Below, piece after piece: positions 16,741-54,752 of a stretch of 64,000 nucleotides of DNA. How positions within the stretch are numbered: position 1 is the first letter of the stretch; every line of letters begins with the position of its first letter. Origin of the DNA: Eledone cirrhosa (taxonomy: Eukaryota); assembly GCA_964016885.1 (NCBI GenBank), contig OZ024742.1, positions 187,984,001 to 188,048,000 on the forward strand, read 5' to 3'. Both the position numbers and the translations under genes were made by a program. Under the pieces are notes generated by a model that worked only from the letters and a program-made list of their open reading frames with translations, searched no databases and had not been told where the DNA came from.

Positions 16741-17700
16741 ATGAAAAAGTATGAGGCCGACGGCAGAGCTCAAGCCGTTTCGACGGCTATTTCTGGACTA
16801 TACATAGAGTCCAGAAATAGCCGTCGAAACGGCCTGAGCTCTGCCGTCGGGGTCATACTTTTTCCTATTTCCCACTCTACTACCTTAAGTATTGAGTACT
16901 CTGGTGCGTTATGGTCCATCTGGTTCCATACCTCATTTCTTTTGTTATGTATCCATATATATATATACAGATACATATATATATATATACATATATATAT
17001 ATATATATACACATATATATATATATATATAGATACATATATATATACATATATATATATATATATATACATATATATATATAGATACATATATATATAT
17101 ATATATATATATATATATATATATATATATATATATATATATATATATACATTTGTTATATATACATATATATATATATATACATATATATATATATATA
17201 TATATACACATATATATATATATATATATACATATATATATATATATATATATACACATATATATATATATAGATACATATATATATATATACATATATA
17301 TATATACATATATATATATATATAGATACATATATATATATATATATATACATTTATATATATATATATATAAATATATATATATAGATACATATATATA
17401 TATATATATATATATATATATATATATATATATATATACATTTATATATATATACATTTATATATATATATATATATACATTTATATATATATATATATG
17501 CATTTATATATATAAATATATATATATTTATATATATATATACATATATATATATATATATATTTATATATATATATATATATATATATATATATATACA
17601 TATATATATATACATATAACGAAGGAAATGTGGTAAGGAACCAGGTGGACCATAACGCACCAAAGTACTCAATACTTGAGGTAGTAGAGTGGGTAATAAC
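16741..17700. mobile_element. GAGCTC-loop family: fold-back head and body (16741-16947), (TA)n, then inverted body (17616-17700)
   Basis: Arms of about 58 bp at 16741-16799 and 16808-16865. The body ctactaccttaagtattgagtactctggtgcgttatggtcca recurs inverted at 17616-17700. Confidence 0.8.
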
Positions 17701-17790
17701 ATATATATATATATACATATATATATATATATATATATATATATATATATATATATATATATATATATATATATATATATATATATATTG
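16950..17790. repeat. Long interrupted (TA)n microsatellite
   Basis: Read directly from the sequence. Confidence 0.95.
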
Positions 17791-18039
17791 TGGTGTGTAT
17801 ATATATACGTGTGTAATGTATTTATTTTATTGATATTTTGTATTTAGTTCTGCAATGCGCATGTCCTGTATTATATAGCTGAATACAGGTCAATTTTGCT
17901 TTTAACTCCAGTTTTGTTCCTTCATTCAACCATATGTATATATATATTATTTATATATATATAGGTGTTATATATATATATATATATATATATATATATA
18001 TACGCTCACGCATTTATTGATAGGTTATATATATATATG

Positions 18040-20715
18040 AAAACAAGGAGAAAGAGACGATTATTAGGAAGAAACATTTTTTATCCCCCTTTTTTATTTC
18101 TCTCTCTCGTTTTTCTGGGTTAGAAAATGATTAAAACGAAATGTTTTACTTTGTGTGAAGTGTTAAGGTATTAGTTGATTTATTTATTATTTAACAATGG
18201 CATTTATTTATATATTTATATATTTAATAATTGTCTATTACCGGTTTCAGTATTTTTATGCATTTTCAAATGATAGCGATATGTATTAGTGTGGTGTCGC
18301 ACATGTGAAAGAGAAGGTGCAGAAAGAATAATGTTATTTACAAACAAGGTTTATGAACTGAAAAGAAAAAAAAGAAAAAAGAAAAATAACTGACGTGATG
18401 TAGAGCATAAAAGTCAACGTGAAAGAAAAAATAATGTGATTTACAGGCATAGTTCTTGAAGTTAAGCAGATCAAAATGTGTTAAAATAGCAAGAATGCTT
18501 AGTTGATCCATGATTCCATGATGGAGGCAAATGGTGGACTGTGGTTTGATATGATTTCCCTTTTTAGAGAGTTAATATGCAGGGGGAGGCAATTCTTGCT
18601 GGATGATATTTAAATTTTTAAGAAAAAGGATTAGTTACGATGTGAGGGAGGTAACTCTTGTAAATGTTTGATTGTTTGTTGCAGTTATTAGTTTGGTCCG
18701 ATTTTTAGTGCATTAAGAAGAGGGTGGAATTTGTTAAGTAGAGGTTGGAATTTGTTAATGAAATATGTCTCCTTATTGGTACGATGGATGAAGGTAGCGT
18801 TGTCTATGAATTTGTAAATGGGGAAAATTTGAAAGTTTGGATGTTGGTTCTGTGCACAATTGGCGATATGTTCACTAAATGCAATCTTTCTGTATTCCTG
18901 TATTTTAATTTGTGATTTATGGACGGTCACACGTTGACGGAGGCTGTTTTTTGTCTGTCCTATTTAGTGGTCTTGACAACCTGAGCAGGTCAAAACATAG
19001 TTTTTCAGATGCACATGTAAAGTTGTGTTTAACTGTGAAATGTTGTCCTTGTTTAAAATGGAATGTTGAACCTTCTATTAGATTTATGCATATGACACAC
19101 TTGGGCCTTCCGCATTCTTCTACTGTAGGGTTTATTGTGAGGGTTTGTTGGATTTTGGCTTGTGTGAGGATGTTTTTTTATGGAGTTAGGTTGTCTTTTG
19201 CTCTTTATGATGTTGTGTGTTTGGAGGATTTTGTTCATTCTTGGGTCTCTTTTTACTAGAGGAATGTTCTGAAGGATGGTGCCGAATGCCTCATTGTTGA
19301 GGGGCTTGTGTGTGGAGATGTATGGTAGAGATTTTTGTTGCTGTTCATTCCTGGGTTTGGGGTGTCTGAGTTCCTGGATGTCTAGTTTTAGGGCACGTTG
19401 GAATCCATTGTTGTTTAGGGATGGTGGGTAGTTTCTGCTGATAAGTGTGTTTTTTAATTCTTCTAGTCGTGTGTTTGCATGTGTCTTTATCTGAAACTAT
19501 TGTGCAGATCCTTCTGGCTAGGTTATAAGGAATTGCCCTTTTGGTGTGTCTAGGGTGGCACGAGTTGAATGGGAGGTATTGTTTGGAGTCTGTGGGTTTG
19601 TAAATAGAATCAGACATATATGTCTGATTCTATTTTGTTGCTTGTTTTCTTGATGAGGATGTCGAGGAAAGGGAGTTGTTCATGGCTGTAATCCATTGTG
19701 AATTGTAAGTTTGTGTTGAGTCCATTCAGAAGGGTTTTAAACTCAAACAGTCTATCTATACTTTCATGCCAGAGGATAAAGCAGTTGTCCAGATATCTCT
19801 TCCAGTCCTTTTCATTGTGTTGGTAGAAGTGGTTGCCGTATTTATCTAGAACTTTGCGGTAGAGAGTCGTTTCCAAATATTCCATGACAAGGTTGGCGTA
19901 TGAGGAGGCTACTTTCGTGCCCATGGAAGTCCCAGATTTCTGTCTGTCGTATTTGGCATTGAATTTGAAGAAATTGTTTTCCAAGATGAATTTGAGTCCC
20001 TCCAACACAATTTTTTTAGGGATGCGCTGTGGGAGTTCACTAGAGAAATGTTCAAGCCAGAATTGTATTGCCTCTATACCTAGGTTCTGTGGGATATTGG
20101 AATATAAATTGATTACATCAAAGGTTACTAGTAGGGTATGTTCATTATTGAGTGTTGTTGGGAGGTGGTTGAACATGTCAAGGTCGTCCCATATGAAGCT
20201 TTTTATGTGTTTTAGGAAAGGTTTAAGCAGAATATCTAAGAAGTTGCTTAGGCGGTGGGTTTCACATGTGGTGCCTGCTATTATTGGTCTTATTTTAAGG
20301 TCATCAGGAGGGGCTATATGGATGTAAACGTCTGTGGCTTTCTTGCAGGCCCTACCTATTACTTCGCTTTTGTGTGTCTTTGGTAGAAGAGGCTGGTTCT
20401 TCTTTTGAAAATGGTGATGTAGTTGTATTCCTTGTCTGTAAGGCCTTCTTTGTAAAGGGTTGTTAGGGATTTTAGGTTTCTCATTATTTTCTGTTGTGTG
20501 TAGTGTTGGGCCTTTTCATATATTTGGTTTTCTAGAGTTGAGAGTACTAGAGTTGTGTAATAATCTGTCTCCATAAGGACTATTGCACTCCCTTTAACTG
20601 CCTCTTTAATTGTTAGGGTTTTGTCGTTTTTTAGACTGTTAAGACCATTCCATTCTCTTTTACTTAGGTTTGGTTTTTGTTTATGTCTGTGTAGGTGGTA
20701 GTATGGGTAATTAGT
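18040..20715 (-). mobile_element. Penelope-like retroelement (RT plus C-terminal GIY-YIG), 5'-truncated and decayed
   Basis: Coding remnant at 18688-20700, AT-rich 3' region, degenerate HHR-like motif at about 18235-18277(-) (TTGAAAA..GAAACCGGTA). Confidence 0.9.
18688..20700 (-). pseudogene. PLE reverse transcriptase and GIY-YIG endonuclease, frameshifted
   Basis: NLSKRE..IKEAVKGSAIV, RPIIAG, LVTFDVINLYSNIP, QKSGTSMGTKVASSYANL, WKRYLDNCF, LPFLDILI, YKPTDSKQYL..SCHP, YVLTCSGC..IGQT, ETYFINKFQPLLN. Confidence 0.93.
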
Positions 20716-53187: not shown

Positions 53188-53565
53188 ATAAATGGAAAAA
53201 ATGAAATTTCATTTCACATTCTTAGTACGGCTGATACTTAAATATAAGTATGTATACGTACATACATATATGTATACAGACGTACAGTAGTATGTACATA
53301 CATGCATACATGCACACATATATATATGTACGTATGGGTTTACCTAACATTTATTATAATGTTTGGTTTGTTTGTAAACAAACATCCCGAATTAAGCCGT
53401 ACAGTATTCGGCAACCTTCGTTGACTTTTTGTTCAACACTGACTAAGGAACGATGAACTAGTTTCTAGCTTATTAGCTGTCATCACCACCGTATACCTTC
53501 CTGTCAGTCGATTGAACGTTTGAAAGTATATACTTTCCTTATGCATATTAATGGCTGAGCAGCCT
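53188..53565 (-). mobile_element. Family A retrozyme-like unit, single copy (HHR 53451-53491, decayed core)
   Basis: Collinear with 7138-7522. Minus strand reads CGGTG-GTGATGA-CAGCT-AATA-AGCTA-GAAA-CTAGTT-CATCG. Confidence 0.8.
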
Positions 53566-54135
53566 CCATAGGTAGATGTAACCCTTCTCTTTTCCTCTAT
53601 GTTTTCTTCTTCTCTTTGTCTCCTCCTATGACTTCCTTCCACCACCGATCTTCTTCCTCGTCGTATGTTTTTTCCCTTTCGCCTACCGCGAGGCAGCCCA
53701 TCGGGGCTCTGTAGCCTCAGTACCCCCACCCCGGTAACTTAAAAATAGCATTGGCCGATTACGCTATACTAACTAATTATAGTAGCTGTGTTAGACCCCA
53801 GAGATATTGTATTACTTTTTACTACCCAATTCTACAATTTCAATAATTCTTATTTAGTATATTCTATACTCAACTCATTCTATACTCAACTCATTCTACC
53901 CGTTCTTAACGTCCCTCCTCTATTTTCTCTAGAAATCTTTTTCCGCCTACCTCCTCTGGCCTACTTTTATACACAATCCTTAGAATTGAGCTGCTTTACC
54001 GGCTCCACCCACACCCGCATCATTCTATAGGCAAGTTCAGCCACCCCACCTCCACCCACTGCTATGATAGACTTATTTGTGTTTACAACAAATTTAGACC
54101 AATCCTCTTGACAACTACAATCTTCCCATATAAGG

Positions 54136-54242
54136 AAGTAAACCTGGAAAAGATCGGCTATTTATTTACCAGACTAAAAATTCTGATTTAGTTCAGAAAT
54201 AGCCGTCGAAACGGCTTGAGCTCTGCCGTCGGGCTCATACTT
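54136..54242 (+). ncRNA. Candidate extended type I hammerhead (GAGCTC-loop family)
   Basis: AAGTAaaCC-TGGAAAA-GAtCGGCTATTT..AAATAGCCGTC-GAAA-CGGC-ttGAGCTCt-GCCG-TC|GGgctcaTACTT. The core is one substitution from TTGAAAA. Confidence 0.55.
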
Positions 54243-54752
54243 TCTCCTATTACCCATGCTACTACCCTAAGTATTGAGTACTCTTGTCCGTTATGGTCCA
54301 TCTGTTTCCTTACCACAACTTCTTCGTTATATATATATATATATATACATATATATAAAAGCATAAATACACACACACACATATATATATATACGTGCCA
54401 GTGTGAATTTAAGTATATATATATGTGTCTCTCTCTCTCAGTCTCAATCTCTCTCTCTCTCTCTCTCTCTCTCTCTCTCTCTCTCTCGTATATATATATA
54501 TATATATATATATATATATATATATATATAACGAAGGAGATGTGGTAAGGAACCAGATGGACCATAACGCACAAAAGTACTCAATACTTAGGGTAGTAGA
54601 GTGGGTAATAGGAACAGGTATGATCCCGACGGCAGAGCTCAATCCGTTTCGACGGCTAAATCTGGACTGTTTAAATCTGGACTGACTGAACATGAGTCCA
54701 GATTTAGCCGTTGAAACGGCTTCAGCTCTGCCCTCGGGGTCATACTTGTTCC
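54190..54752. mobile_element. Two tail-to-tail copies of the GAGCTC-loop family around a microsatellite; right copy has a fold-back head
   Basis: 54190-54330(+) and 54528-54670(-), then a fold-back arm at 54695-54752. Confidence 0.8.

What the first reader, a model, noticed from the sequence alone, without database searches (positions are those of the whole stretch)
16741..54752. GAGCTC-loop family: extended hammerhead whose stem II apex is the fold-back axis
Seen: the copy at 54136-54242 folds as a type I HHR with bulged stem I, long stem II and a real stem III (A-CGGC/GCCG-U) closing a palindromic GAGCUC loop before a GUC triplet. In copies at 16741, 54610-54752 and 9955 the sequence 5' of stem II, including the core, is replaced by an inverted copy of stem III/stem I. 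The symmetry axis therefore lies in the stem II loop. Two loci also show tail-to-tail pairs across (TA)n. Inference: cDNA snap-back at the ribozyme's own hairpin primes second-strand synthesis, a concrete mechanism for PLE-type inversions.
Basis: inference. Interest (0 to 1): 0.7.

Follow-up and report, generated by a model that had tools for sequence, protein, structure and literature searches.

The report
Penelope inversions from two primed cDNAs
These palindromes are the ends of a very abundant Penelope-like jumping gene that carries a hammerhead ribozyme motif; their two arms were likely copied separately from an RNA that likely begins inside the ribozyme and then joined, rather than folded back on the ribozyme hairpin, which would explain how such elements get their inverted ends.

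Summary
The repeats are real: 3' ends of an endonuclease-bearing Penelope-like element with Hydra-clade motifs (42,109 exact tail matches). The family has a type I hammerhead with a U3-A8 core; an older sister family has C3-G8 at the same place. The 54136 copy has a U4G core and a damaged stem I.

Inversion breakpoints cluster sharply, but not in the stem II loop. Both arms stop at a ceiling 39-41 nt upstream of the predicted cut (window 54190), the A of a TTAGT/TCAGT motif; solo and ORF-linked copies start there too. One arm ends at +20, the other at +97 (70 of 73 pairs). Either may reach further upstream (34 vs 26; long inversions 13 vs 12, by up to 2.4 kb), and 9 of 75 pairs do not overlap. 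One folded-back cDNA cannot give this; 1 of 97 junctions keeps the native loop.

Best reading (0.6): both strands of a cut (TA)n prime cDNAs at two fixed RNA sites, each runs off a capped 5' end inside the ribozyme, and the ends are joined. No RNA data tested the start site. This scan's notes on two other genomes read similarly.

The parts
53560..54327 (+). 5'-truncated 3' end of the Penelope-like element (3' UTR, hammerhead, tail to +97), followed by (TA)n
   Evidence: BLAST to the family reference, matches 53560-53879 and 53745-54327; GIY-YIG ORF about 900 nt upstream in L003, L005, L026
54133..54248 (+). Type I hammerhead motif, degenerate in this copy: core 54145-54151 (TGGAAAA; family TTGAAAA), G10.1 54152, stem II 54155-63/54197-205, apical hairpin 54172-78/54187-93 with loop 54179-86, GAAA 54208-11, stem III 54212-15/54225-28, GAGCTC 54218-23, C17 54230
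54188..54193 (+). Initiator-like motif (label recalled); its A at 54190 is position -40, the 5' ceiling of both arms and the inferred RNA start
   Evidence: start site inferred, not shown
54248..54250 (+). Short 3' end (+18..+20, TAT), inferred second priming site
   Evidence: coverage falls from 263 to 162 after +20; arm ends
54325..54330 (+). Long 3' end (+97..+100, into TAT), inferred first priming site; in tandem copies the sequence continues into the 5' UTR and ORF
16739..16800 (-). Inverted short arm, -41..+20
16801..16807 (.). 7-nt junction insert, not the native loop; G just before -40 of the forward arm
16808..16945 (+). Long arm, -40..+97
17619..17698 (-). Tail-only piece +18..+97, tail to tail with 16945 across (TA)n
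54531..54668 (-). Long arm, -40..+97, tail to tail with 54327 across (TA)n and (TC)n
54669..54694 (.). 26-nt junction insert, partly copied from the arm ends (8-nt match)
54695..54755 (+). Short arm, -40..+20
9951..10126 (.). Decayed palindromic unit of an older sister family whose read-through copies carry a CTGATGA core
5777..5849 (-). Solo short arm of a further related family, starting at the matching position with a G between flank and arm
   Evidence: position read by eye
8210..8269 (+). Solo short arm of the same related family

Best explanation
The palindromes are insertions of a Penelope-like retrotransposon into (TA)n whose two arms were likely made as two separate cDNAs, one primed from each strand of the cut target at fixed RNA sites (+97 and +20 from the predicted hammerhead cut), each likely running off an RNA 5' end at -40 before the cDNA ends were joined. 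Shown: the element, the hammerhead motif with covarying core, the two fixed 3' ends, the -40 ceiling, the symmetry of reach, and junctions that are blunt, briefly microhomologous or carry inserts. Inferred: transcription starts at an initiator-like TTAGT/TCAGT inside stem II of the upstream repeat, so the leader holds only the 3' half of the ribozyme. Priming in that leader gives the abundant 60 + 137 nt palindromes, like a strong-stop product. Priming in the downstream repeat reads through the whole ribozyme and gives the long inversions. Both priming sites carry TAT, which would pair with a nicked (TA)n. Whether one RNA is copied twice with strand displacement or two RNAs sit in one dimer is not resolved.
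For: Pairing is strict: 70 of 73 head-to-head pairs have one +20 and one +97 end, 28 of 29 long pairs, and 75 vs 2 among 100 tail-anchored copies, 23 with no partner found. Reach is symmetric: +20 arm further upstream in 34, +97 arm in 26, equal in 10 (p=0.37); 33 vs 24 with 18 within 2 nt (about 10 loci shared with the first sample); 13 vs 12 with 3 undetermined among long inversions, by up to 2.4 kb (L234, L243; my tally). Arms share no sequence at all in 6 of 70 and 9 of 75 pairs. Solo +20 arms up to 440 nt long occur (L108, L104, L096). The ceiling does not need an inversion: solo arms (L055, L074, L125), ORF-linked copies (L150, L152) and pieces that follow an ORF fragment in tandem (L150, L157, L158, L165) start at -39..-41. 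The older sister family has a different apical stem-loop but the same motif and ceiling (16 of 43 arms at -39..-41, none beyond). A G precedes -40 in 19 of 33 free arm ends vs 8 of 33 at control positions with the same native preceding base (p=0.012); an extra G marks capped 5' ends in L1 insertions (PMC11702581). Read-through is shared by both arms (29 opposite-strand pairs picked from the first 100 matches). Arms agree at a subfamily site in 55 of 55 pairs. A purified PLE protein nicks and extends both target strands and starts at two sites that bound the tail (PMC11167929); D. virilis Penelope has an internal promoter (PMC2377424).
Against: No RNA evidence for a start at -40. The G excess is modest, pooled over loci from several searches with one duplicate row, and 13 of the 33 ends have C. 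About a fifth of short arms called reach -41 to -47, so the ceiling is not absolute. Complete subfamily agreement of the arms fits a fold-back as well. Microhomology of 3 nt or more in 8 of 97 junctions is compatible with some self-priming. In one search, 2 of the first 50 of 694 units with both arms beyond -42 hold the full native loop, 3 hold most of it, and about 6 are centred on a sister subfamily's loop. The sister-family ceiling comes from hits chosen by likeness to a window copy that itself ends there. The in vitro PLE starts without homology to the cut DNA, whereas TAT pairing is inferred here. L223, L225 and L239 in the long set are complex.
Confidence: 0.6

Rival explanations
1. Two separately primed cDNAs are joined, as above, but -40 is a processing site or a hard reverse transcriptase stop inside a longer RNA, not a transcription start.
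For: All symmetry and non-overlap results hold without a promoter. No RNA run could test the start.
Against: -40 lies in the middle of a weak hairpin strand in the young family and in an internal loop in the old one, so it follows a sequence motif rather than a fold. A chance stall would not make read-through shared by both arms. Extra G at -41.
Confidence: 0.18
2. One cDNA primed at +97 runs off at -40 or truncates, self-primes near its own end, and later deletions at the palindrome centre scramble which arm is longer (close to the self-priming idea of Arkhipova et al. 2013).
For: Arms always belong to one subfamily (55 of 55); some junctions have microhomology (35 of 97 with at least 1 nt); self-priming was proposed for PLE palindromes (PMC3846280).
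Against: It needs one-sided deletions of up to 2.4 kb from the +97 arm in about half of long inversions, leaving flush junctions, and loss of the whole overlap in 9 of 75 pairs. 62 of 97 junctions are blunt or carry inserts; in 8 of 70 both arms reach -39..-41. Solo +20 arms exist.
Confidence: 0.12
3. One reading: cDNA snaps back on the ribozyme's own stem II hairpin and primes second-strand synthesis.
For: Breakpoints lie within about 10 nt of the apical loop. A few units carry the predicted product: 2 of the first 50 of 694.
Against: Native loop in 1 of 97 held junctions, and that one is a read-through; whole-stem product 0; arms stop before the loop; same ceiling in a family with a shifted apex and in solo copies; reach symmetric.
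Confidence: 0.03
4. Head-to-head units arise from two independent insertions followed by deletion between them, or spread as a ready-made non-autonomous palindromic element.
For: Copies are dense in (TA)n tracts; a few junction centres recur.
Against: Strict +20/+97 pairing, 55 of 55 subfamily agreement (about 19 discordant expected from random pairing of a pooled population), and 91 distinct centres among 97 junctions.
Confidence: 0.03

Closest known systems
Hydra clade of C-terminal-endonuclease Penelope-like elements (Craig et al. 2021, PMC8557442)
   Same: DKT in place of DKG, CxCx5C linker, RWR at the RWK position, CxxC and CxH around the endonuclease E and N, C-terminal GIY-YIG-type domain, (TA)n targets, hammerhead in the terminal repeat
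   Different: Unit 3.5 kb (Hydra generally under 3 kb), tens of thousands of copies, U3-A8 core with long stems II and III, tail about 80 nt rather than 30-40; no tree was built
PLE inverted pseudo-LTR with one-sided tail (D. virilis Penelope, A. vaga Pen2a; PMC8557442, PMC3846280)
   Same: Inverted 5'-truncated copy next to the 5' end, tail on one side only, palindromic junction
   Different: Published explanations are self-priming or endonuclease resolution; here arm geometry points to two primed cDNAs and a fixed 5' limit inside the ribozyme
Poseidon element of Anolis in vitro (Frangieh et al. 2024, PMC11167929)
   Same: Two internal initiation sites bound the tail; both target strands are nicked and extended; AT-rich target; predicted dimer
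   Different: Other clade; no homology between primer and RNA there, TAT at both sites here; inverted ends not treated in the parts read
L1 twin priming (as described in PMC11702581)
   Same: Second target strand primes a second cDNA; inversion junction resolved by end joining; extra G at capped 5' ends
   Different: L1 arms come from different parts of the RNA at variable sites; here both sites are fixed and the arms mostly overlap
U3-A8 hammerheads of Schistosoma Cercyon PLEs (Cervera and de la Pena 2014, PMC4209133)
   Same: U3-A8 for C3-G8, G10.1-C11.1, palindromic loop 3, location in the terminal repeat
   Different: Those are minimal motifs without a stable helix III; this one has a 5-6 bp helix III and a much longer helix II

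Membership tests
EN+ Penelope-like elements | Single ORF with RT followed by a GIY-YIG endonuclease | tested here: met
   Translations of L065, L067, L069, L251 show RT motifs and VIYQ...AYIG (motif reading partly recalled); ORF in L251 is split over frames; Pfam and PDB gave no hit; Atlas hits at 0.94-0.96 carry RVT_1, GIY-YIG and HTH_animal families
EN+ Penelope-like elements | Partial tandems forming pseudo-LTRs, inverted copies, one-sided tail | tested here: met
   L251 tandem unit of 3,523 nt; +97 runs into the ORF in tandem copies; +20/+97 ends
Hydra clade | DKT, CxCx5C linker, RWK-like motif, CxxC/CxH in the endonuclease, (TA)n target | tested here: met
   RWR rather than RWK
Hydra clade | Phylogenetic placement with Hydra RT sequences | not tested
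   No reference Hydra proteins were fetched
Type I hammerhead ribozyme | Core CUGANGA or covarying UUGANAA, GAAA, NUH, three helices | tested here: met
   TTGAAAA in 25 of 30 best copies, TTGACAA 2, other 3; CTGATGA in 10 of 20 rows of the older family, 3 of those rows being chance matches; N7 takes all four letters across subfamilies; Rfam listed no hammerhead at these loci among the 150 of 218 rows shown
Type I hammerhead ribozyme | Intact core in the window copy at 54136 | tested here: not met
   U4G, two stem I pairs lost
Type I hammerhead ribozyme | Self-cleavage after C17 | not testable with these tools
   Indirect only: 7 of 100 tail copies start within 2 nt of the site vs 1.7 expected (p=0.002), which a pause at stem III would also give
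Twin priming | Arms primed independently from both target strands | tested here: met
   By geometry only: symmetric reach and non-overlapping arms; not shown biochemically
Twin priming | Both arms from one RNA molecule; target-site duplication | tested here: inconclusive
   Arms agree by subfamily but one or two RNAs cannot be told apart; duplications are hidden in (TA)n
Hairpin snap-back | Native loop retained; first-primed arm always longest | tested here: not met
Non-LTR retrozymes | Tandem non-coding units each with a full hammerhead | tested here: not met
   Short units lack the 5' half of the ribozyme and are head to head (definition from 10.64898/2026.07.22.740005)

The most novel reading that the evidence does not exclude
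Penelope-like elements integrate by a two-ended reaction: a dimer primes both strands of the break at two fixed RNA sites, so the inverted pseudo-LTR and the one-sided tail are the normal product of one step. The promoter sits inside the hammerhead, so only the downstream repeat holds a whole ribozyme; the leader carries a half that could be cut in trans, and the conserved self-complementary GAGCUC loop could pair two template RNAs as a kissing loop.
Probability: 0.3. Interest if true: 0.75.

Novelty: new variant of a known kind. Interest (0 to 1): 0.52.

Why it matters
How Penelope-like elements make their tandem and inverted ends is named as open in PMC8557442 and left unvalidated in PMC11167929. 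This family gives thousands of independent junctions that separate the models: they disfavour the published self-priming reading and tie the in vitro finding of two start sites and two-strand extension to the genomic structure. The reading makes sharp predictions (a capped start at -40, two cDNAs, half a ribozyme in the leader) that an existing in vitro system can test. The element, its ribozyme type and its inverted ends are otherwise known kinds.

Tried and rejected
Rfam scan: dominated by microsatellite matches; no hammerhead at the finding's loci among rows shown. Repeat finder: swamped by (TA)n. RNA test: no RNA holder listed; the three runs laid were contigs of one sample of unknown kind with cover that looks genomic, so they say nothing on start, strand or splicing. 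Pfam and PDB sequence searches of the ORF gave nothing. A first count of the base before -40 showed no clear G excess because partner-arm ends confound it; only the count on free ends with a matched control did. One search dropped 17 of 100 rows through a faulty duplicate filter; redid it on all 100, and its script missed two partners visible (L297). In one search four rows (L005, L026-L028) were mis-anchored and two had no core match; their energies were ignored. A possible 5' UTR intron (pyrimidine tract and CAG before the ORF start) was noticed and not tested. Hammerhead cleavage as the source of the main 5' boundary is rejected: the ceiling is 40 nt upstream of the cut. The earlier-findings look-up for this genome was empty.
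Full report
Coordinates. Positions are given relative to hammerhead C17 (0 = window 54230). The window lies in a 3.0 Gb, 1,796-contig animal genome rich in (TA)n; the host was not identified.

What the repeat is. The 201 nt at 54130-54330 match many copies at 89-94%, and exact motifs occur 10,740 times (stem III 29-mer) and 42,109 times (tail 22-mer), with reversed controls at 0. About 900 nt upstream the longer copies end an ORF with a GIY-YIG-type domain. L251 holds a full tandem unit of 3,523 nt whose ORF is split over frames and shows RWR, DKT, RT motifs, a CxCx5C linker, and CxxC and CxH in the endonuclease. 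These match the description of the Hydra clade (PMC8557442 section 11); no tree was built. Pfam and PDB searches were blank; Atlas neighbours carry RT and GIY-YIG families. In tandem copies +97 runs straight into the 5' UTR and ORF, so the terminal segment is the pseudo-LTR.

The ribozyme. The 5' core is TTGAAAA-G in 25 of the 30 best copies. Sister subfamilies have TTGAGAA and TTGATAA (3,592 matches; the pattern fixed U3 and A8). A search that allowed either core found an older family, to which the 9955 copy belongs, with CTGATGA at the same place (10 of 20 rows, 3 rows chance). C3-G8 against U3-A8 is a covariation already reported in Schistosoma PLEs (PMC4209133). Copies with all helices intact fold as a hammerhead within 0.8-2.7 kcal/mol of their minimum. 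The window copy has U4G, has lost two stem I pairs and sits 6.7 kcal/mol above its minimum, so it is likely dead. Cleavage was not testable.

Breakpoints are sharply clustered. Exact stem III palindromes number 564 with spacers of 0-30 nt and 3,390 with 31-60 nt. In 100 consecutive tail-anchored copies, 52 start between -47 and -33, 9 read through, 39 start further 3' (binomial p about 1e-22). In 70 paired units drawn from the 100 listed matches, three loci and the window, the furthest reach is -39 to -41 in 42. That is the A of TTTAGTC on the 3' strand of the apical hairpin; the loop is -51 to -44.

Snap-back on stem II fails. It predicts the native loop at the centre. Of 97 short junctions in all held loci, 1 has it, and that one is a read-through. 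The product of folding on the whole stem has 0 matches. Among 694 units with both arms beyond -42, 2 of the first 50 have the full loop, 3 most of it and about 6 centre on a sister loop (read by eye), so a minor route stays possible. Both window palindromes stop at -40/-41 with foreign spacers.

A single folded-back cDNA fails too. Only the +97 arm holds +21..+97, so it would have to be the first strand and reach furthest. Pairs are strictly one +20 and one +97 end (70 of 73, 28 of 29, 75 vs 2), but the +20 arm reaches further in 34 vs 26, 33 vs 24 (about 10 loci shared) and 13 vs 12 long inversions with 3 undetermined (my tally; pairs picked from the first 100 matches), by 2.4 kb in L234 and 2.3 kb in L243. 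In 6 of 70 and 9 of 75 pairs the arms do not overlap. Junctions are blunt (21), 1-2 nt microhomologous (27), 3 nt or more (8) or carry inserts (41) among 97; 8 of 15 longer inserts match the arm ends by 6 nt or more against 1.2 in shuffles, two of them probably small-indel artefacts. This is what end joining of two cDNA ends gives. Against: the arms agree at -31 in 55 of 55 pairs, which a fold-back also predicts, and later centre deletions cannot be excluded for short units.

What sets -40. Solo arms, ORF-linked copies and pieces joined behind ORF fragments start there without any inversion. The older family has another apical stem-loop, with its loop about 10 nt further upstream, yet keeps TCAGTC and the same ceiling (16 of 43 arms at -39..-41, none beyond, hits chosen by likeness to the window copy). 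When one arm reads through, the other usually does, as expected of a template property. A G precedes -40 in 19 of 33 free ends against 8 of 33 matched controls (p=0.012), the mark of a copied cap in L1 (PMC11702581). TCAGT and TTAGT resemble the animal initiator (recalled), and D. virilis Penelope has an internal promoter (PMC2377424). I infer a capped RNA start inside stem II. No RNA data bore on this.

Model. A (TA)n tract is cut on both strands; each 3' end pairs with TAT at +98..+100 or +18..+20 and primes a cDNA (inferred; compare PMC11167929, where both strands are extended from two start sites that bound the tail). In the leader both cDNAs run off at -40 and give the short palindromes; in the downstream repeat they read through and truncate at random. 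Their 3' ends are then joined. A long cDNA joined to a leader-primed short one gives the textbook inverted pseudo-LTR without tail (L150, L157). Tail-to-tail pairs follow because every unit points a 3' end outward on both sides. A small excess of starts at -2..+2 (7 vs 1.7 expected) may reflect ribozyme cleavage or a pause at stem III.

Literature seen. PMC11167929: parts 1-2 of 4, and three supplement files searched for three terms without hits. PMC8557442: passages and section 11. PMC4209133: parts 1-2 of 4. PMC3846280: passages; it proposes self-priming for PLE palindromes. PMC2377424: passages and section 15. PMC11702581: passages. bioRxiv 10.64898/2026.07.22.740005: part 1 of 5, supplements closed. 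Searches listed no paper that proposes twin priming for PLE inverted ends; the library lacks most subscription papers, including older PLE reviews, so this is not proof of absence. Two unchecked notes of this scan on other genomes read similarly; I saw them after forming this reading and they are not independent support.

Verdict. Element, ribozyme class and inverted ends are known kinds; the junction statistics and the start inside the ribozyme are the new part.

Noticed in passing
window 31042-31086 (-): Compact canonical hammerhead, Rfam Hammerhead_1 at 32.1 bits, just under the gathering score; unrelated family
   Followed up: no
window 4405 (-), 55170 (+), 62122 (+): Another repeat family with CTGATGA, a paired stem and GAAA next to (TA)n, likely a further PLE hammerhead family
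   Followed up: no
window 39880 (-), 36633 (-): Further CTGATGA...GAAA motifs; the 39880 repeat also appears beside family copies in L160
   Followed up: no
window 42472-42722, 6242-6411, 61705-61853, 56724-56915, 7195-8145: Other palindromes with one short and one long arm and an asymmetric centre, several flanked by (TA)n; possibly other PLE families using the same route
   Followed up: partly
window 19613-20515 (-): 301-codon frame with Penelope-type RT motifs of another clade; LINE-type frames at 25229-25903, 44989-45699 (-) and 49263-50027 (labels recalled)
   Followed up: no
L150, L157, L158, L165: ORF 5' fragments followed in tandem by a unit starting at -39..-41, as if a cDNA that ran off the RNA start jumped to another template
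   Followed up: partly
L251:590-645: Pyrimidine tract and AG just before the ORF start, with an upstream short ATG frame in the tail; possible 5' UTR intron as in D. virilis Penelope
   Followed up: no
window 54218-54223 and L346-L365: GAGCTC is kept in loop III of young and old families while flanking loop letters change (11 of 17 old-family rows intact); possible kissing loop
   Followed up: partly
L026-L028, L061-L064 (G000:C2:201.8-202.0 Mb): Four near-identical copies 55-60 kb apart, probably a segmental tandem duplication
   Followed up: no
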